From positions 1-40,622 of the IMG/VR virus record IMGVR_UViG_2671180275_000009: a DNA stretch of 40,622 bases; one strand, given 5' to 3'. Shown here piece after piece: positions 1-8,292 of the stretch (within the stretch, counting starts at the first letter, position 1; each line of letters starts with the position of its first letter). The DNA comes from a virus. Taxonomy: Duplodnaviria > Heunggongvirae > Uroviricota > Caudoviricetes. A program made the position numbers and the translations under genes. The notes below the pieces were generated by a model. It did no database searches. It was not told where the DNA came from and saw only the letters and a list, made by a program, of their open reading frames with translations.

Positions 1-1589
1 ATGATGTTAAATGCATGGCACCTGCCGGTGCCCCCATTTGTTAAACAAAGCAAAGATCAACTGCTCATTACACTGTGGCTGACGGGCGAAGACCCACCGC
101 AGCGCATTATGCTGCGTACAGAACACGATAACGAAGAAATGTCAGTATCGATGCATAAGCAGCGCAGTCAGCAGCAGCCTGGCGTCACCGCATGGCGTGC
201 GGCGATTGATCTCTCCAGCGGACAACCCCGGCGGCGTTACAGTTTCAAACTGCTGTGGCACGATCGCCAGCGTTGGTTTACACCGCAGGGCTTCAGCCGA
301 ATGCCGCCGGCACGACTGGAGCAGTTTGCCGTCGATGTACCGGATATCGGCCCACAATGGGCTGCGGATCAGATTTTTTATCAGATCTTCCCTGATCGTT
401 TTGCGCGTAGTCTTCCTCGTGAAGCTGAACAGGATCATGTCTATTACCATCATGCAGCCGGACAAGAGATCATCTTGCGTGACTGGGATGAACCGGTCAC
501 GGCGCAGGCGGGCGGATCAACGTTCTATGGCGGCGATCTGGACGGGATAAGCGAAAAACTGCCGTATCTGAAAAAGCTTGGCGTGACGGCGCTGTATCTC
601 AATCCGGTGTTTAAAGCTCCCAGCGTACATAAATACGATACCGAGGATTATCGCCATGTCGATCCGCAGTTTGGCGGTGATGGGGCGTTGCTGCGCTTAC
701 GCCACAATACGCAGCAGCTGGGAATGCGGCTGGTGCTGGATGGCGTGTTTAACCACAGTGGCGATTCCCATGCCTGGTTTGACAGGCACAATCGTGGCAC
801 GGGGGGAGCTTGTCACAACCCTGAATCGCCCTGGCGCGACTGGTACTCGTTTAGTGATGATGGCACGGCGCTCGACTGGCTTGGCTATGCCAGCTTGCCG
901 AAGCTGGATTATCAGTCGGAAAGTCTGGTGAATGAAATTTATCGCGGGGAAGACAGTATTGTCCGCCATTGGCTGAAAGCGCCGTGGAGTATGGACGGCT
1001 GGCGGCTGGATGTGGTGCATATGCTGGGGGAGGCGGGTGGGGCGCGCAATAATATGCAGCACGTTGCTGGGATCACCGAAGCGGCGAAAGAAACCCAGCC
1101 GGAAGCGTATATTGTCGGCGAACATTTTGGCGATGCACGGCAATGGTTACAGGCCGATGTGGAAGATGCCGCCATGAACTATCGTGGCTTCACATTCCCG
1201 TTGTGGGGATTTCTTGCCAATACCGATATCTCTTACGATCCGCAGCAAATTGATGCCCAAACCTGTATGGCCTGGATGGATAATTACCGCGCAGGGCTTT
1301 CTCATCAACAACAATTACGTATGTTTAATCAGCTCGACAGCCACGATACTGCGCGATTTAAAACGCTGCTCGGTCGGGATATTGCGCGCCTGCCGCTGGC
1401 GGTGGTCTGGCTGTTCACCTGGCCTGGTGTACCGTGCATTTATTACGGTGATGAAGTAGGACTGGATGGCAAAAACGATCCGTTTTGCCGTAAACCGTTC
1501 CCCTGGCAGGTGGAAAAGCAGGATACGGCGTTATTCGCGCTGTACCAGCGAATGATTGCGCTGCGTAAGAAAAGTCAGGCGCTGCGTCG
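1..1589 (+). pseudogene. malZ: Maltodextrin glucosidase MalZ, N-terminal ~529 codons; the frame runs into prophage sequence and stops at 1602
   Basis: Translation matches my recollection of E. coli MalZ N-terminus ([32 protein letters not shown]...); native MalZ is ~604 aa, here the C-terminus is replaced by ...ALRRVTR* from the element end. Confidence 0.85.
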
Positions 1590-1780
1590 TGTAACCAGGT
1601 AAATCATTTGATACCGACAAGGGTTTTAGTGAAAGGAGGTGAAATCACCTGTAAGATACTGAAATAAAACAGGTGATCGATGATTCTGGAGGTTACTTAG
1701 TTTTGATACTGATTAAATAAAATCCGGTATAAAATTAAGGCATCGGCAACAAATTTGATACTGCACATACTGCTTATAGA
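1590..1780 (+). repeat. Prophage left end (attL-like) with three TTTGATAC-containing putative transposase-binding repeats and an 8-bp inverted repeat
   Basis: TTTGATAC at 1607-1614, 1702-1709 and 1754-1761 (spacing 95 and 52 bp, similar to Mu L1/L2/L3 layout); TCACCTGT 1643-1650 and ACAGGTGA 1669-1676. Confidence 0.5.
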
Positions 1781-2632: not shown

Positions 2633-2878
2633 GTGAGTCTTATTGAAGATTGGTCTTCCGCCGATATAAAGGCAGCCTTAGAAAAACGCGATACCAATTT
2701 GTCACGTTTATCAAGGGAAAATAATTTGCAGCCTAGGACTTTGGGTAATGCTTTGCGAGTTCCCTACCCTAAAGGTGAAAAGATTATTGCTAGGGCTATA
2801 GGTGTAGAGCCGCAAGTTATTTGGCCTACTAGATATGAACGACGTGCGCGGAGGAAATATGTGGGTTGCAATGACTGA
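2633..2878 (+). CDS. ner: Ner-like DNA-binding protein (GTG start)
   Basis: 81-aa ORF with ...GEKIIARAIGVEPQVIWPTRY, resembling the Mu Ner C-terminus (...IIANALETKPEVIWPSRY). Confidence 0.8.
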   Translation: MSLIEDWSSADIKAALEKRDTNLSRLSRENNLQPRTLGNALRVPYPKGEKIIARAIGVEPQVIWPTRYERRARRKYVGCND

Positions 2879-4943
2879 ATTGATTTCATTCAGTGACCTA
2901 CCTAGTTCTTTGGCAGGTCTGCACAAAAAAGCAAAGAGGGAGGCGTGGAAAACGCGGCTAAAACCAGGGGTAAAAGGGAAAGTTTTAGAGTGTGAAATAG
3001 GTGCTTTGCCTTTAACTGTTCAGCAGGCAGTACGTGAACGCTACGCCCTGCAACTGATGACGCAAAAAGCCGATGAATCACCGGCTCCGGTGGTGACAAA
3101 GGCCAGACGCTCACCTGCCGTGGTTGATGCGGTGGAGGCATATCGCGGATCACCACAACTGATGGTCGAACGCCTCAATGCCCTGACTGAAAACCAGCGC
3201 CAGGTGGCTGATGCACGAATCGCGATCGTCAGCGAAGTTCTGAAAGTCGCGCAACAACCTGGTTTCAGCTGTGCGAAGGCTATCCGGTTTATCGTTGACA
3301 ACCTGGCACGTTCGCAGCTGGACGAGCGCATTGTGGCAATGGTTGAGACGGCGAACGCCAAAAAGGGAAACAGCCGCGCGTTAAGTGAAATCACGCTGAA
3401 ACGCTGGATTGCGGCCTTTAACAAGGCGCAGAACGCCGCTGAACGCCTGCTTTTACTGGCACCGGGTAAGCGCCAGGAAATAAAAGCCGAAGATATTAAC
3501 TGGCTGCCCGAATTTCTGGCGCAGTATCGCCAGTCAAACGGCCGACCAATGACCGAGGCTTACGAGGATTTTGTCGCTGAATGGCAGCACCGGCACGCTG
3601 ATGAGCCTTATATGCTCGATATCATGCCGTCTTATGACACCATTCGCCGCGCAATGAAGAAACTGCCGGAAGTGGTGAAACAAAAAGGCCGGGTGACCGG
3701 CAGTGAATACCGTCAGCTTGAGGGATTCACGCGCCGCGACTGGTCCAGAATGCCGGTGAATTATGTCTGGATTGGTGACGGTCACGGCATGAAGCTGAAA
3801 TGCAAACACCCGGTTCACGGACGGCCATTTGCACCGGAAGTGACCTTTATTATCGACGGTGGCACACGCTTTGTGGTGGGCTGGAGCATGGACCTGGCTG
3901 AAAATGTTTTCGCCGTAGCCGGTGCCATACAGCACGGCATTCGTCATCACGGCAAACCGTTTCTGTATTACTCGGATAACGGTTCGGGGGAAACCGCCGA
4001 CATCCTGGATAAGGAGGTTGTGGGGATCCTGCCGCGCCTGGGGATTAATCACCCGACAGGGATTGCCGGTAATCCGCAGGGGCGAGGCATTATCGAACGG
4101 CTTAACCGCACATTACCAATGCGCATAGCCCGTAAATACCGCACCTATTTCGGGAAAGGTGCAGATCGCGAAACGTTACGCAAAACCAACCGCGATTTAC
4201 GCTCGGCATTCACTGCCCTGCAACAGGACAAACGGCTGAACGCCCGGCAGCAGTCAGCGATGCGTGATTTACCGTCCTGGCCTGAACTGATTGATGCCAT
4301 CCGTGATGGTGTCGAGTGGTACAACAACCGGCCGCACAGCGGATTGCCGGTGAAACCGAACGGTAAACATTACAGCCCGGCGGAATACAGGAAAAAACGC
4401 CTGGCAGAAGAGGACACGGAAATTGAATGGCTGTCCGATGTTGAGCTGCGGGATATGTTCCGGCCAATGGTGGAACGCCCTGTAAGACGCTGTGAAATAC
4501 GCTGGCTGAATAATATTTACTACGCGCCCGAGCTGCGTGATGAGCATGGCCGCAAGGTGCTTATCAGCTATGACATTCATGATGCCGAACGAATTACCGT
4601 ACGTCGCCTGGATGGCAGCGTGATTTGCGAGGCGGTATGGGACGGTAATAAACGCGAAGCCTTCCCGGTTAGCGCGGAATACTACAAACAGCAGCAACGC
4701 CTTAAAGGCATGCGTAAACGCGCAGAGGAAAAAATCCGTGATGCCGAGGATGAGGTTGTCAACGTGCTGGAGCACAAGCCGCAGGAGCCCTGGCTGGAAA
4801 ACATATACCGCCCTGTGGGTAATACGGTGACCGTTCAGCAACCGGTCGCTGACGATGAACCTGATGAAGAATGCGAGCGTAATTTCCAGCGGGGATTGCA
4901 GCTGCTTGAAGCGAAATTAAAAGAAAATGACCCGCTGGCCTGA
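2859..4943 (+). CDS. A: Mu A-type DDE transposase
   Basis: ~694-aa ORF; N-terminal repressor-like DNA-binding motif (LPSSLAGLHKKAKREAWKTR); position after ner; start 2859 or 2868 uncertain. Confidence 0.9.
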   Translation: MWVAMTELISFSDLPSSLAGLHKKAKREAWKTRLKPGVKGKVLECEIGALPLTVQQAVRERYALQLMTQKADESPAPVVTKARRSPAVVDAVEAYRGSPQLMVERLNALTENQRQVADARIAIVSEVLKVAQQPGFSCAKAIRFIVDNLARSQLDERIVAMVETANAKKGNSRALSEITLKRWIAAFNKAQNAAERLLLLAPGKRQEIKAEDINWLPEFLAQYRQSNGRPMTEAYEDFVAEWQHRHADEPYMLDIMPSYDTIRRAMKKLPEVVKQKGRVTGSEYRQLEGFTRRDWSRMPVNYVWIGDGHGMKLKCKHPVHGRPFAPEVTFIIDGGTRFVVGWSMDLAENVFAVAGAIQHGIRHHGKPFLYYSDNGSGETADILDKEVVGILPRLGINHPTGIAGNPQGRGIIERLNRTLPMRIARKYRTYFGKGADRETLRKTNRDLRSAFTALQQDKRLNARQQSAMRDLPSWPELIDAIRDGVEWYNNRPHSGLPVKPNGKHYSPAEYRKKRLAEEDTEIEWLSDVELRDMFRPMVERPVRRCEIRWLNNIYYAPELRDEHGRKVLISYDIHDAERITVRRLDGSVICEAVWDGNKREAFPVSAEYYKQQQRLKGMRKRAEEKIRDAEDEVVNVLEHKPQEPWLENIYRPVGNTVTVQQPVADDEPDEECERNFQRGLQLLEAKLKENDPLA

Positions 4944-5019: not shown

Positions 5020-5952
5020 ATGACCGATATTAACGATGTAATCAAGACCATTGATGAGCTTATTGATGGCGGCGTACTGACGCAGTATGCCATCGCCAGA
5101 GAGGCGGGAATTTCCGACGGCACATTATCGGCTTTCCGCAAGGGAAAATATAAAGGCGATAACGCTGCTGTGGCTGCTTCCCTGCGCTCCTGGTATGAGA
5201 ACTGGAATAAACAAAGCGCACTGCCCGAGCCGCCGCAGTTTGTGGAAACGCAGACAGTCCAGGAGCTGCGCGCGCTGTTTCAGGCGGTCCGCCTGATGGG
5301 CTGTATTAACGTCATAGTGGGCGTGCCCGGGGTGGGTAAAACGGCCACGGCTCGTAATTACTGTCAGGAACAACCGAACACCTGGATGATCACCCTGTCG
5401 CCCGCGCATTCCAGCGTCACGGAGTGTCTGCTGGAGCTGGCAGAGGAACTGGGGATTGATTACACCCGCGCGAACAAGGGGGCGTTATCCCGCGCCATCC
5501 GCCGTCGCCTGATGGGAACGCGTGGACTGGTGATTGTTGATGAGGCGGATCACCTTGGTATTGACGGTCTGGAACAACTGCGTGCAATCCAGGACGCCAC
5601 GGGGATCGGGATGGTGCTTATTGGTAACCCACGCGGACTGTTTAAGGGTGGACGCCGCGCCGTTGATGATTTATCGCGCCTGTTCAGTCGTCTTGCCCGT
5701 ACAAAACAACTTCGCAAGGCCAAAAAGGCGGATGTGCTGGCCATTGCCAGGGCATGGGGGATTAGTGGTGAGGCCGAGCTGGCTGTCATGCAGGCTATCG
5801 CTGAAAAGCCGGGAGCCTTACGCGTTCTGACACATACGCTTAACCAGGCGTGGATCACCGCCAGCGGTGAAGGCGCGGCGCTGACAGAAAAACATATTAA
5901 TGCGGCCTTTAAAGAGGTTTATACCAACCCTGAATTACTCTCACAGGTGTGA
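5020..5952 (+). CDS. B: Mu B-type transposition ATPase
   Basis: 310-aa ORF with N-terminal HTH-like region and Walker A GVPGVGKT; immediately downstream of A. Confidence 0.85.
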   Translation: MTDINDVIKTIDELIDGGVLTQYAIAREAGISDGTLSAFRKGKYKGDNAAVAASLRSWYENWNKQSALPEPPQFVETQTVQELRALFQAVRLMGCINVIVGVPGVGKTATARNYCQEQPNTWMITLSPAHSSVTECLLELAEELGIDYTRANKGALSRAIRRRLMGTRGLVIVDEADHLGIDGLEQLRAIQDATGIGMVLIGNPRGLFKGGRRAVDDLSRLFSRLARTKQLRKAKKADVLAIARAWGISGEAELAVMQAIAEKPGALRVLTHTLNQAWITASGEGAALTEKHINAAFKEVYTNPELLSQV

Positions 5953-6176
5953 TTATGGCTGCATTTAATATTCCTGATATTTACGGACGCTTTTACCTGG
6001 TGAATTTCGATAACGTGAAAGTGATTTCACTGGCCGAAAATAAAGAATGTGGTGATTTACTTTTTGAATTTAATGACCGCACACGAATGGTGATATCTGC
6101 CGGACTTGATCGCGAAGGTGCGACAGACGTTTACAGCGGAATATGCCGTTCTGTTGGTGCAAAACAAGTCAGCTAA
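5949..6176 (+). CDS. Hypothetical early protein (75 aa)
   Basis: ORF overlapping B stop (ATGA-type coupling); no recognisable motif. Confidence 0.45.
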   Translation: MIMAAFNIPDIYGRFYLVNFDNVKVISLAENKECGDLLFEFNDRTRMVISAGLDREGATDVYSGICRSVGAKQVS

Positions 6177-6188
6177 ATGAGGTGTTAT

Positions 6189-6443
6189 ATGAATATGCAA
6201 TCCTGCGGTAACAAAATGAATTTATTCGACTCCCTGAACAGCGCGCGTCGTCTGACCGAACTTGCCGGTGCGGTACTGGAGCGCAGCAAACGCTACCCAC
6301 AACGTTATGCCCTGAAAACCACGCCGCCGGTAAACGAAGTTAAGGGAACCGGTGAAATTGAAATCACTGTTCAGACCAATGGCCTGCGCCGCCGTGTAAA
6401 AGCCACCCGCATAAGCGGCTGCACGGTTTACTGGGAAGTATGA
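6189..6443 (+). CDS. Hypothetical early protein
   Basis: ORF with GAGGTG Shine-Dalgarno before ATG 6189 (track start 6177). Confidence 0.45.
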   Translation: MNMQSCGNKMNLFDSLNSARRLTELAGAVLERSKRYPQRYALKTTPPVNEVKGTGEIEITVQTNGLRRRVKATRISGCTVYWEV

Positions 6444-6790
6444 AGTTGCTTCATGGTTCGACTCTGTCATCAGGTCAGACGCCGGGGCAGTTATCCAAAC
6501 AGAACGAGGACCAGAGGGTGAGTAAAGTCGTACGCATTATTTTCGAATACAAGGAGCACGTTATCCATAAAAACGCGGATGGAACAGTGCGCATGGGGGT
6601 AAGTCTGGACATACGTTCAACCGGGATAAAGCAGAAAGGTGATGGACCTGCCATGATTTTTGGGGTGGTTATGCTCGCGGAAAGCAGAGACTTTGCTGAA
6701 CTTGTGGCAATGAAAGCCAGTGCGCTCATGAAAGATATGAACATGAGTTCCGGGGTTATTAAAGGTAATGAATTTAATCAGCAGGGGTAA
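6440..6790 (+). CDS. Hypothetical early protein, paralogue 1 of a tandem pair (alternative GTG start at 6518)
   Basis: Contains SKVVRIIFEYKEHVIHKNADG, similar to the start of the next ORF; GAGGA RBS 7 nt before GTG 6518. Confidence 0.5.
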   Translation: MKLLHGSTLSSGQTPGQLSKQNEDQRVSKVVRIIFEYKEHVIHKNADGTVRMGVSLDIRSTGIKQKGDGPAMIFGVVMLAESRDFAELVAMKASALMKDMNMSSGVIKGNEFNQQG

Positions 6791-6794
6791 TTCC

Positions 6795-7088
6795 ATGAGC
6801 AAAGTACGCGTTATTTTTGAATTTGAGCATGTTTCGCATGACGAAAAATCGGCAGGCAATGACAGTGTTGAAGTGCATGAAAAGATTGGAGTAGATGTGA
6901 AAACAGAACGTGATACGGATAACAGGCCGACGTCACTCTGTGACGTTTATGCAAGCATTCTCCAGTATCACAGTCCTGTAATTATTCAGTTTCTCTCAGC
7001 GGAATTTCAGGCATCTGTACAGGCTTTTGGGGCGGATGCCATCATTAAACGCCACCGTGTGCATAAAGCATCAGGCACACTGCAATAA
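6795..7088 (+). CDS. Hypothetical early protein, paralogue 2 of a tandem pair
   Basis: Starts MSKVRVIFEFEHVSHDEKSAGND, paralogous to the preceding ORF; RBS before ATG 6795. Confidence 0.55.
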   Translation: MSKVRVIFEFEHVSHDEKSAGNDSVEVHEKIGVDVKTERDTDNRPTSLCDVYASILQYHSPVIIQFLSAEFQASVQAFGADAIIKRHRVHKASGTLQ

Positions 7089-7098
7089 GGAAAACAAA

Positions 7099-7629
7099 AT
7101 GGTTAAACGTGTTACAAAATTAAAGGCCGCAGCCGAGGCTGCACCGCAGACCCGCGAAGAAGTCAGCCGCGATATCCGAACCCTGGGCGATATTCAGCGA
7201 GAGGCGCTGCGCCTGGAAACGGCAATGAATGATGAAGTGGCAGAAATCACCGCCCGTTATACGCCGCAGATTGAAAACCTTAAAAAAGAAATCAAAGTGC
7301 TTTTTAAAGGGATTCATGACTGGTGTAAAACCAACCGCAATGAGCTGACGAACGGCGGCGAAACCAAAACTGCCAATCTGACCACCGGAACGGTGTCATG
7401 GCGGCTGGGAAATCCATCATGCAGCGTCAGTCGTGATGTGGAGGGTGTGATTGAAATGCTGCGTCGTATGGGGCTTGAGCGCTTCATCCGCACGAAAGAG
7501 GAAGTGAATAAGCAAGCTGTCCTGGCAGAGCCGGATGCGGTGAAAGGGATTGCTGGTATTAAGGTGAATAAAGGCGCTGAAAGTTTTCATGTCGAGCCTT
7601 TTGAACAGGACGCCGGACTGAATAAATAA
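7099..7629 (+). CDS. gam: Gam-like host-nuclease inhibitor (Ku-like DNA end-binding protein)
   Basis: Strong similarity to my recollection of Mu Gam (..LGDIQREALRLETAMNDEVAEIT..NRNELTNGGETKTANLTTGTVSWR..LERFIRTKEEVNKQA..); AAGGA RBS before ATG 7099. Confidence 0.85.
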   Translation: MVKRVTKLKAAAEAAPQTREEVSRDIRTLGDIQREALRLETAMNDEVAEITARYTPQIENLKKEIKVLFKGIHDWCKTNRNELTNGGETKTANLTTGTVSWRLGNPSCSVSRDVEGVIEMLRRMGLERFIRTKEEVNKQAVLAEPDAVKGIAGIKVNKGAESFHVEPFEQDAGLNK

Positions 7630-7713
7630 CACCGCATTAAATCTTTAAATATCACATCGTTTTAATTATGGCGCTCGCGTCAGGGGACTGCTCGCGCCTG
7701 AATGAGGCATGTC

Positions 7714-8292
7714 ATGAGTATTAAATATCGTTATTTTAAAATGAATGAGAGCGATTCCCGTCATTATCACAGGGAATGGCTTGATTGTGTTGGCAGGGAG
7801 CGCCAGAAATTGATTGATGATTTTCTCAGTAATCAGAATGCCAGAGGGTATTGTTGTTCCTGGTATTGTGGGGATTTTTTTGTCAAATCAATACTGGTGC
7901 ATGAGGATGTTGATGTCGGAAGAAATAAACGGGTGTTGTCTGATAAATTTGATGAAGATGGCCGTACTTTATTTTCAGTTAAGCCCGACCGCAGATTCAG
8001 AGAGGGAAAAAAACTGAACAAAGCACTGAATATCTTAAACGAGAAGTTAAAACAGCTTCCGTCATTCAGTACCTGGATGGTTAATAAACTGGACTGCTAT
8101 TTTGAGGTTTTTGGTGTCAGCAACGGCCGCACAGTTATGGCGTGCTCTTCTGCCGGGTTCTATGGCGACAAAGGGGCTGTTGTGGTTCGTATTCCTGTCG
8201 GTGAATCAGATAATGCCTTTTCACCTGAAAAGCTGCATCCGTCATTGATGGCAATCAAGCATTCCGAATTCATCGCAATAACGGAGGAATAA
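7714..8292 (+). CDS. Hypothetical protein encoded in an AT-rich segment (candidate moron)
   Basis: ORF with visibly lower GC than flanking phage genes; no recognisable family. Confidence 0.5.
   Translation: MSIKYRYFKMNESDSRHYHREWLDCVGRERQKLIDDFLSNQNARGYCCSWYCGDFFVKSILVHEDVDVGRNKRVLSDKFDEDGRTLFSVKPDRRFREGKKLNKALNILNEKLKQLPSFSTWMVNKLDCYFEVFGVSNGRTVMACSSAGFYGDKGAVVVRIPVGESDNAFSPEKLHPSLMAIKHSEFIAITEE

What the first reader, a model, noticed from the sequence alone, without database searches (positions are those of the whole stretch)
6440..7088. Tandem paralogous small genes immediately upstream of gam
Two adjacent ORFs begin with nearly the same peptide (SKVVRIIFEYKEH / SKVRVIFEFEHV) and have similar size, indicating a local duplication. 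Duplicated early genes next to the Ku-like Gam could be diversifying host-interaction factors.
Basis: seen in the sequence. Interest (0 to 1): 0.4.

Follow-up and report, generated by a model that had tools for sequence, protein, structure and literature searches.

The report
Ancient tandem paralogues in Mu-like prophage
Two small neighbouring early genes of an E. coli Mu-like prophage are real, anciently duplicated copies of one uncharacterised protein family; this is ordinary phage accessory-gene biology, though the family may be distantly related to phage Mu's O-antigen-altering protein Gnarl2.

Summary
orfA is 6518-6790 (GTG start, 90 aa) and orfB is 6795-7088 (97 aa). Both lie on the + strand between kil and gam in a Sp18-like Mu-like prophage.

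Pairwise BLASTP aligns only the first 17 residues (12/17 identical, E 7e-4). Profiles built from Salmonella, Klebsiella and Serratia relatives of orfB match orfA over about 77 columns (hhalign 90%, E 1.4e-6). orfA still scores above 2000 shuffles after its first 15 residues are removed. The genes are therefore true but ancient paralogues.

Both are under purifying selection (dN/dS 0.2-0.4), which gives no evidence of diversifying selection. Divergent alleles reassort between the two genes. Outgroup genera carry a single copy. About 4% of complete E. coli genomes carry the pair.

The shared N-terminus is also frozen at the DNA level: the first 30 nt of orfB are identical in 48 of 49 loci. It acts as a recombination joint, because two single-copy loci join orfA's leader to the orfB coding sequence at the start codon.

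There is no Pfam, PDB or fold match, and function is unproven. The one lead is a one-directional match of Mu gp7/E6 (Gnarl2) to orfB's PHROG family. The kil-gam interval is a variable accessory slot. Overall this is ordinary, with modest interest.

The parts
6518..6790 (+). orfA: 90-aa protein, GTG start (ATG in most relatives), PHROG phrog_4107, no Pfam
   Evidence: ORF and translation. PGAP calls the 273-bp gene in near-identical prophages. phrog_4107 E 7.8e-61. dN/dS 0.21-0.36 across alleles. 41 homologues found, the named ones all from E. coli.
6795..7088 (+). orfB: 97-aa protein, PHROG phrog_2230, no Pfam; divergent paralogue of orfA
   Evidence: phrog_2230 E 5.5e-39. dN/dS 0.25-0.42. Relatives in Salmonella, Serratia and Klebsiella. 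hhalign to the orfA family at 87-90% probability.
6518..6550 (+). 5' repeat, copy 1: start codon plus first 10 codons of orfA (MSKVVRIIFEY), including the 19-nt core 6530-6548
   Evidence: Direct repeat D2, 17/19 nt. Nearly invariant among 42 copies. No synonymous change in codons 2-11, against dS about 0.6 in the hairpin and helix segments.
6795..6824 (+). 5' repeat, copy 2: first 30 nt of orfB (MSKVRVIFEF), including the 19-nt core 6804-6822; acts as a recombination joint
   Evidence: Identical in 48 of 49 E. coli-type loci, including alleles only about 70% identical elsewhere. Single-copy loci L004 and L048 join orfA's leader to the orfB CDS at the start codon, at the head of the repeat.
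6444..6517 (+). Leader between kil and orfA, carrying orfA's SD (GAGG 6506-6509). The in-frame ATG at 6440 gives a 116-aa form that some gene callers report.
   Evidence: P0001, P0013. Most E. coli prophages align only from window 6452 onward and carry a 93-aa gene there that ends in an ATGA overlap with orfA's start.
6216..6443 (+). kil homologue, the upstream boundary of the accessory slot
   Evidence: phrog_2679 'Kil protein', E 6.2e-44. Pfam PF26843 hits the equivalent gene of relatives. C-terminal G-C-x-V-Y-W motif as in Mu Kil.
7099..7629 (+). gam (Ku-like host-nuclease inhibitor), the downstream boundary of the slot
   Evidence: Pfam PF07352 E 2.1e-39.
6658..6665 (+). TTTTGGGG microhomology in orfA; partner copy at 7025-7032 in orfB. 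Junction of a natural orfA-N/orfB-C fusion (P0036).
   Evidence: The P0036 sequence ...GPAMIFG|ADAIIKRHRVHKASGTLQ read against the window sequence.

Best explanation
SHOWN. orfA (6518-6790) and orfB (6795-7088) are two translated genes under purifying selection. They are anciently diverged tandem paralogues of one small protein family of about 90-97 aa. The predicted topology, at low confidence, is a long N-terminal beta-hairpin followed by a helix. The family hallmark is the first strand, M-S-K/N-(x)-V-x-V/I-I-F-x-F/Y. The named homologues found all come from Mu-like prophages of Enterobacterales. The genes lie inside the early operon, packed 4 nt and 10 nt from their neighbours. No terminator-like site was found on the + strand in 5900-7800. 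The interval between kil and gam gains and loses small genes among Mu-like phages. Outgroup genera have one copy, while the E. coli Sp18-like lineage keeps both in nearly all prophages. The first ~30 nt of each gene are frozen at the nucleotide level. They serve as a homologous-recombination joint: alleles of orfA and orfB reassort, and recombination at the start codon, at the head of the two 5' repeats, has deleted orfA in some prophages. INFERRED. The products are non-enzymatic, cytoplasmic, non-essential accessory proteins that act early after infection or induction by binding a host protein. The most specific candidate activity is interference with O-antigen/LPS biosynthesis, as reported for Mu E6/Mup07 (Gnarl2). 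In that reading the two paralogues would cover different host variants or form a hetero-oligomer. The paralogy and recombination parts are well supported; the functional part is a lead only.
For: Paralogy: hhalign 87.5% with E 3.6e-6 over 67 columns, and 90.4% with E 1.4e-6 over 77 columns using only non-E. coli relatives. An HMM of 73 non-E. coli relatives scores orfA at 17.1 bits and residues 16-90 alone at 11.1 bits, both above 2000 shuffles. The best tblastn hit of a Klebsiella relative in 2.3 Gb of phage DNA is orfA. The two AF2 models share topology: strands 3-18 and 24-39 plus a helix, versus strands 4-19 and 25-39 plus a helix. Real genes: dN/dS 0.2-0.4, PGAP calls, SD sequences. Operon context: no + strand terminator-like site and no Rfam family. 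Single copy in outgroups. Pair present in 271 and 274 places in 228 and 232 of 5426 E. coli genomes and in 38 of 39 viral contigs. Variable slot: kil lies directly before gam in PhiKM, SuMu and JBD24, while Mu has gp6-gp9 there. Frozen 5' ends and recombination; junctions in L004 and L048; all four major allele combinations occur. Gnarl2 lead: Mu gp7 and all 6 of its relatives tested hit orfB's PHROG phrog_2230 over the full length, with E 0.009 for Mu itself and a best of 3.5e-4. gp7 lies in the same kil-gam interval. NP_050611.1 is gnarl2, which shifts O-antigen bands and sensitises wild E. coli to T5 by 10^5-6 fold (PMC12373910).
Against: Pairwise BLASTP aligns only 17 residues. orfA does not hit phrog_2230 in hmmscan at E<=1. 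The AF2 models are low confidence (pLDDT 62 and 55). The Gnarl2 link is one-directional and weak. hhalign of the gp7 family against the orfA, orfB or merged profiles gives E 0.04-0.4. My own HMMs do not score gp7 above shuffles. orfB-family members do not hit gp7's phrog_10252. No bridging sequences were found. Gnarl2's own target is unknown, and function may not be conserved at under 20% identity. The frozen 5' ends could instead reflect selection on translation initiation; the orfB start region folds more weakly than most shuffles (z +1.47).
Confidence: 0.6

Rival explanations
1. The two genes are unrelated. Only their 5' ends were made alike, by recombination or gene conversion of a shared 'linker' at a mosaic boundary, or by common constraints on translation initiation.
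For: The similarity is strongest in the first 17 residues. It is visible in DNA at 17/19 nt. The 5' ends are frozen at synonymous sites and are used as recombination joints.
Against: orfA residues 16-90 alone still match a profile built only from non-E. coli relatives of orfB, in register, above 2000 shuffles. hhalign aligns 77 columns. The strand motif is conserved at protein level in Salmonella, Serratia and Klebsiella with a different residue sequence (MSNKVQVIFTFE). The predicted topology is the same.
Confidence: 0.07
2. The N-terminal resemblance is chance between two unrelated small ORFs, one or both of which are not real genes.
For: BLASTP E is only 7e-4, and there are no Pfam, PDB or fold matches.
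Against: Both frames show dN/dS of 0.2-0.4 across alleles diverged up to dS about 1. Both belong to PHROG families. Profile evidence supports homology.
Confidence: 0.02
3. They are counter-defence proteins against an intracellular immune system (for example a restriction, abortive-infection or RecBCD-linked system), grouped with the anti-RecBCD gene gam, rather than envelope modifiers.
For: They lie in an accessory slot beside an anti-nuclease gene. They show presence/absence variation and several divergent alleles. The screen that named Gnarl2 found such slots enriched for counter-defence genes.
Against: No similarity to any characterised anti-defence protein was found. The only homology lead points to Gnarl2, whose phenotype was phenocopied by O-antigen mutants rather than tracking particular defence systems.
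Confidence: 0.22
4. They are cofactors or regulators of Gam, or of transposition and replication; that is, they work on phage DNA rather than on the host.
For: They sit immediately upstream of gam in the same operon. In every lineage examined the orfB-type gene lies directly before the gene occupying the gam position.
Against: Gam-bearing Mu-like phages PhiKM, SuMu and JBD24 have no such gene, and no member was found in Mu by HMM at E<1e-3. In Salmonella and Klebsiella the neighbour is DUF3164, not Gam. Net charge is near neutral (pI 9.1 and 6.0) with no nucleic-acid-binding domain match.
Confidence: 0.08

Closest known systems
Phage Mu gp7 / E6 / Mup07 (NP_050611.1) = Gnarl2 (Nat Commun 2025, PMC12373910)
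   Same: It is a small (87 aa) early-operon protein encoded between kil and gam of a Mu-type phage. Its N-terminus MAKVIIEIK resembles MSKVVRIIFEY. gp7 and all 6 relatives tested match orfB's PHROG phrog_2230 over the full length, with E 0.009 for Mu itself and a best of 3.5e-4. The four hhalign alignments agree in register over the helix (gp7 residue i aligns with orfA residue i+5).
   Different: Homology is not established. hhalign E values are 0.04-0.4, my HMMs do not exceed shuffles, and there is no reciprocal PHROG hit. Mu has one copy, and it is not adjacent to gam because gp8 and gp9 intervene. The O-antigen phenotype is known only for Mu gp7, and its target is unknown.
PHROG families phrog_2230 (orfB type) and phrog_4107 (orfA type), both 'unknown function'
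   Same: orfB and orfA are clear members, with E 5.5e-39 and 7.8e-61.
   Different: PHROGs keeps them as two separate families. This work links them as paralogues through Salmonella, Klebsiella and Serratia intermediates.
Single-copy orfB-type genes of Salmonella, Klebsiella and Serratia Mu-like prophages (e.g. P0065, P0162, P0070)
   Same: They have the same length (93-98 aa), the same N-terminal strand motif and the same GP-x-x-Y/F-(A/G)-x-I-L helix start. They occupy the same position, just before the gene in the gam slot.
   Different: They are single copy. In Salmonella and Klebsiella they are preceded by an unrelated 90-92-aa gene and followed by DUF3164 instead of Gam.
Conserved boundary ('linker') sequences at mosaic joints of temperate phage genomes (lambdoid phages; from my own knowledge of the literature, not checked here)
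   Same: A short stretch at a gene boundary is conserved at the nucleotide level between otherwise divergent alleles, and recombination breakpoints map to it.
   Different: Here the conserved stretch is inside the coding sequence (first 10 codons) and is itself duplicated in tandem. It therefore also drives copy-number change.

Membership tests
Tandem paralogue pair (local duplication) | Sequence similarity in register along most of the length, not only a short motif | tested here: met
   hhalign aligns 67-77 columns at 87-90% probability with E 1e-6 to 4e-6. orfA residues 16-90 alone score above 2000 shuffles. Pairwise BLASTP alone would fail this test.
Tandem paralogue pair (local duplication) | Adjacent, same strand, similar size | tested here: met
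   orfA is 6518-6790 and orfB is 6795-7088, both on the + strand, 90 and 97 aa, separated by 4 nt. The spacing is the same in every two-copy locus examined except L044.
Tandem paralogue pair (local duplication) | Single-copy state in outgroups | tested here: met
   Salmonella L011/L012, Klebsiella L014 and Serratia L013 carry one orfB-type gene and no orfA-type gene.
Tandem paralogue pair (local duplication) | Same three-dimensional fold | tested here: inconclusive
   The AF2 models share the hairpin-plus-helix topology, but pLDDT is only 62 and 55.
PHROG phrog_2230 (orfB-type family) | Significant match to the family HMM | tested here: met
   orfB matches at E 5.5e-39. orfA does NOT match at E<=1 and belongs to phrog_4107.
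Gnarl2 (Mu E6/Mup07) family | Demonstrable sequence homology to NP_050611.1 | tested here: inconclusive
   gp7 and its relatives hit phrog_2230 (7 of 7 sequences, E 0.009 for Mu itself and 3.5e-4 at best). hhalign gives E 0.04-0.4, local HMMs stay at or below shuffles, and there is no reciprocal hit.
Gnarl2 (Mu E6/Mup07) family | Small non-enzymatic protein encoded in the early operon between kil and gam of a Mu-type phage | tested here: met
   The proteins are 90 and 97 aa; the paper gives 40-90 aa for Gnarls.
Gnarl2 (Mu E6/Mup07) family | Expression shifts the O-antigen ladder and sensitises O-antigen-positive E. coli to T5 | not testable with these tools
   This phenotype is defined experimentally in PMC12373910.
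Genes under diversifying (positive) selection | dN/dS > 1 overall or in a defined segment | tested here: not met
   Whole-gene dN/dS is 0.21-0.42. The hairpin segment gives 0.35 (orfA) and 0.18 (orfB). Only the orfB tail (codons 80-97) reaches about 1.2, on 19 substitutions.
Gam-associated factor | Co-occurrence with gam across Mu-like phages | tested here: not met
   The family is absent from Gam-bearing PhiKM, SuMu and JBD24, and no member was found in Mu by HMM at E<1e-3. It is present next to DUF3164 in Salmonella and Klebsiella.

The most novel reading that the evidence does not exclude
orfA and orfB are a duplicated, allele-shuffling cassette of Gnarl2-like effectors. Each paralogue or allele would disable the O-antigen/LPS pathway of a different set of E. 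coli serotypes, or the two would act as a heterodimer. The nucleotide-frozen first 30 nt of each gene would work as a built-in recombination site that lets Mu-like prophages swap, duplicate or delete these effectors. That would make Sp18-like prophages of EHEC and other E. coli modulators of their host's surface antigen and phage susceptibility.
Probability: 0.2. Interest if true: 0.55.

Novelty: new member of a known kind. Interest (0 to 1): 0.33.

Why it matters
The pair is present in about 4% of complete E. coli genomes, including many O157:H7 and other STEC strains, and is annotated only as 'hypothetical protein'. Showing that the two genes are one family, and possibly kin of Mu E6/Gnarl2, merges two orphan PHROG families and gives them a testable function: alteration of O-antigen and hence of phage susceptibility or serotype. 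It also marks the kil-gam interval of Mu-like phages as an accessory-gene slot worth screening. The frozen, duplicated 5' ends are a clear small example of how short conserved coding stretches drive allele exchange and copy-number change in phage mosaics. None of this overturns current understanding.

Tried and rejected
Searches that found nothing:
- Pfam gave no hit for either protein or for the 116-aa long form at E<=0.1.
- PDB sequence search with both family profiles gave only noise, E>=0.16.
- Foldseek against BFVD with both AF2 models gave no hit at E<=0.001.
- The afdb50 library was unavailable.
- Rfam on both strands of 5800-7800 found nothing.
- The promoter/terminator scan found no site on the + strand; the one promoter-like and one terminator-like match were both on the - strand and no more than expected from shuffles.
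- tblastn of orfA, orfB and their Salmonella and Klebsiella relatives against 50,697 phage records found only the two Stx-phage records that carry an inserted Mu-like phage.

Attempts to bridge to Mu gp7:
- I built a gp7 family alignment from viral contigs, reaching down to 70% identity.
- Two genome-contig scans and two metagenome scans gave no divergent members.
- hhalign and local HMM tests were not significant.

Ideas rejected:
- I guessed that the ~90-aa genes directly upstream of gam in PhiKM, SuMu and JBD24 were family members. They are Kil-like and unrelated.
- The P0036 orfA/orfB fusion is not evidence of register. Its junction is a TTTTGGGG microhomology that is out of register with the protein alignment.
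- A recent duplication is rejected because there is no DNA similarity outside the 5' ends.
- The minus-strand ORFs across the region (6475-6744, 6617-6859) are rejected as genes because the substitution pattern fits the + strand frames.

Full report
WHAT IS THERE. The window is an E. coli Mu-like prophage of the Sp18 type. It begins in a truncated host alpha-amylase-family gene. The prophage genes then run in order:
- a repressor-like gene on the minus strand;
- transposase A (2835-4943);
- MuB (5020-5952);
- a 75-aa ORF (phrog_3375, 5949-6176);
- a Kil homologue (6216-6443);
- the two genes of the finding;
- Gam (7099-7629, Pfam PF07352, E 2e-39);
- DUF5420, Gp11-like and Gp12-like genes.

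The same DNA occurs at 92-98% identity in 231 records from 230 of 5426 complete E. coli genomes. It also occurs in two Stx-phage records that carry 'an inserted Mu-like phage'.

THE OBSERVATION. The quoted peptides are correct. The mechanical ORFs 6440-6790 and 6768-7088 are longer than the genes. The conserved genes are orfA 6518-6790 (GTG here, ATG in most relatives; SD GAGG at 6506-6509; 90 aa) and orfB 6795-7088 (ATG; SD AGGGG at 6783-6787; 97 aa). This matches the PGAP calls in near-identical prophages. BLASTP aligns only residues 1-17 (12/17 identical, two 1-residue gaps, E 7e-4 for the single comparison). At DNA level the match is a 19-nt direct repeat, 6530-6548 and 6804-6822, with 17/19 identity. 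An HMM scan of all + strand ORFs of at least 40 codons in the window finds no further copy.

BOTH ARE REAL GENES. Across prophage alleles that differ by up to dS 0.4 (orfA) and about 1.0 (orfB), dN/dS is 0.21-0.36 and 0.25-0.42 in the annotated frames. The genes are packed 4 nt and 10 nt from their neighbours. No terminator-like site lies on the + strand in 5900-7800, and there is no Rfam match. They are therefore read as part of the early operon.

IS THE SIMILARITY MORE THAN AN N-TERMINAL MOTIF? Direct searches found 41 relatives of orfA, the named ones all from E. coli, and 22 relatives of orfB, again E. coli where named. An exhaustive HMMER search of 1.84 billion representatives with the orfB alignment added five divergent clusters of 93-98 aa. 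A profile search then added about 100 members from Salmonella, Serratia and Klebsiella.

These intermediates make the relationship visible by eye. For example, P0065 reads ...GISVRVRSQGLSNVDKCGPQHAYGLILKHNAPNIIRFL, and orfA reads ...GVSLDIRSTGIKQKGDGPAMIFGVVMLAESRDFAELV. The quantitative results are:
- hhalign of the orfA family against the E. coli orfB family alone: 76.7%, E 2e-5, 42 columns.
- Against orfB plus relatives: 87.5%, E 3.6e-6, 67 columns.
- Against twelve non-E. coli relatives only, so E. coli orfB's own N-terminus cannot drive it: 90.4%, E 1.4e-6, 77 columns.
- An HMM of 73 non-E. coli relatives scores orfA at 17.1 bits (single-comparison E 2.9e-7; best of 2000 shuffles 10.8).
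- The same HMM scores orfA without its first 15 residues at 11.1 bits, in register (best shuffle 8.7).
- A Klebsiella relative searched by tblastn against 2.3 Gb of phage DNA returns orfA as its single best hit, at a non-significant E of 2.
- The two AF2 models are low confidence (pLDDT 62 and 55) but share a topology: a long beta-hairpin (3-18/24-39 in orfA, 4-19/25-39 in orfB) followed by a helix.

I conclude that orfA and orfB are true paralogues.

AGE AND DISTRIBUTION OF THE DUPLICATION. blastn with either gene never finds the other. PHROGs files them in different families, phrog_4107 and phrog_2230. The duplication is therefore old. Salmonella and Klebsiella prophages have one orfB-type gene. 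It is preceded by an unrelated 90-92-aa gene and followed by DUF3164 rather than Gam. A Serratia prophage has one copy followed by Gam. In E. coli the pair is stable:
- orfA occurs at 271 places in 228 genomes, and orfB at 274 places in 232 genomes.
- 38 of 39 viral contigs carry both.
- The spacing is identical in every two-copy locus examined except L044.

THE 5' ENDS ARE SPECIAL. Between alleles that are 70% (orfB) or 85% (orfA) identical overall, the first 30 nt are 30/30 and 29/30 identical. There are no synonymous changes in codons 2-11, against dS of about 0.6 (orfA) and 1.1-1.9 (orfB) in the hairpin and helix segments. The first 30 nt of orfB are identical in 48 of the 49 E. coli-type loci that the HMM had identified.

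The two major orfA allele groups and the two major orfB allele groups occur in all four combinations. The two single-copy E. coli loci, strain M1 (L004) and viral contig L048, carry the leader that normally precedes orfA (kil end, 75-nt spacer and SD). It is joined to an orfB coding sequence at the start codon, at the head of the repeat. The two loci carry different orfB alleles.

The shared N-terminal segment is therefore a conserved first beta-strand. At DNA level it is also a recombination joint, used both for allele exchange and for deleting orfA. Selection for an unstructured translation start may contribute to the conservation. The orfB start region folds more weakly than 184 of 200 shuffles, which is not significant.

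IS IT 'DIVERSIFYING'? Not in the sense of positive selection. The most variable segment, the hairpin, has dN/dS of 0.35 in orfA and 0.18 in orfB. Only the short orfB tail reaches about 1.2, and that rests on 19 substitutions. The diversity takes the form of a few old alleles that reassort.

CONTEXT. The interval between kil and gam varies among Mu-like phages:
- PhiKM, SuMu and JBD24 have a Kil-like gene directly before gam.
- Mu has gp6-gp9.
- E. coli Sp18-like prophages have orfA and orfB, with or without a 93-aa gene between kil and orfA; a 139-aa gene upstream of kil also comes and goes. Both are absent from this window.

This presence/absence pattern between conserved flanks is the signature that the accessory-gene screens of PMC12373910 used.

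The only lead is Mu gp7 (E6/Mup07, 87 aa), which lies in the same interval. Mu gp7 and all six relatives tested hit orfB's family phrog_2230 over the full length. E is 0.009 for Mu itself and 3.5e-4 at best, for a library of 38,880 families. The four hhalign alignments agree with one another in register.

NP_050611.1 is 'gnarl2'. When expressed in wild E. coli ECOR1 and ECOR22 it shifts O-antigen bands downward and raises T5 plating by 10^5-6 fold. Its direct target is unknown (PMC12373910 and bioRxiv 10.1101/2023.04.06.535777).

Against this lead:
- hhalign E values are only 0.04-0.4.
- My own HMMs do not score gp7 above shuffles.
- There is no reciprocal PHROG hit.
- No bridging sequences were found in viral, genome or metagenome scans.

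I rate homology to Gnarl2 at about even odds, and conservation of the O-antigen activity lower than that.

VERDICT. 'Diversifying host-interaction factors' remains a reasonable but untested guess. The added findings are the link between two orphan PHROG families, the frozen and recombinogenic 5' ends, the variable kil-gam slot, and a testable Gnarl2-like hypothesis. This is ordinary phage accessory-gene biology of modest interest.

Noticed in passing
window 6440-6517: An in-frame ATG at 6440, overlapping the kil stop as ATGA, gives a 116-aa form of orfA that some gene callers report (P0001, P0013). Most E. coli prophages instead carry a 93-aa gene here (WP_000739863) whose 3' end is homologous to window 6452-6517. 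The window looks like a deletion variant that retains only that remnant as a leader.
   Followed up: partly
window 6518-6520: orfA starts with GTG in this window. Only 3 of 42 copies examined have GTG; the rest have ATG.
   Followed up: partly
window 6658-6665 and 7025-7032; protein P0036: A natural 67-aa fusion, orfA residues 1-49 joined to the last 18 residues of orfB, exists in an E. coli assembly. Its junction is the shared TTTTGGGG microhomology. A stop-loss orfA variant of 100 aa (P0005; locus L005) also exists.
   Followed up: partly
L011/L012 3303-3941; L014 3303-3941: In Salmonella and Klebsiella Mu-like prophages the gene in the gam position is a 212-aa DUF3164 protein. Flanking synteny is otherwise conserved (Kil, orfB-type gene, DUF5420, Gp11_C, Gp12). 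DUF3164 may be a functional substitute for Gam.
   Followed up: no
L078 2665-2934; L080 2675-2968; L081 2685-2957: The 'hypothetical' ~90-aa genes directly upstream of gam in phages PhiKM, SuMu and JBD24 end in a Kil-like G-(C/I)-x-(V/L)-x-W motif and look like unannotated Kil homologues. SuMu gp06 (63 aa) is annotated 'host nuclease inhibitor' without obvious basis.
   Followed up: partly
L013 2645-3004 (Serratia prophage): An uncalled 119-aa ORF between kil and the orfB-type gene contains two CxxC pairs (CPFCG...CQTCG), which suggests a small zinc-ribbon protein. It may be another occupant of the accessory slot.
   Followed up: no
window 1-1602 and 1896-2414: The window opens inside an alpha-amylase-family host gene (Pfam PF00128, E 2e-82) whose ORF ends at 1602. 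A Mu-repressor-like gene (HTH_Tnp_Mu_1) lies on the minus strand at 1896-2414, so the prophage left end and insertion site should lie at about 1600-1900.
   Followed up: no
L002 1906-2325, absent from the window: Some Sp18-like prophages carry a 139-aa gene between the first post-B gene and kil. It has exactly the length of Mu gp8 (420 bp). Possible homology was not tested.
   Followed up: no
L004 versus L048: The two single-copy (orfA-deleted) loci have identical upstream leaders but different orfB alleles (type I and type II). Either the deletion arose twice, or the allele was exchanged after the deletion.
   Followed up: partly
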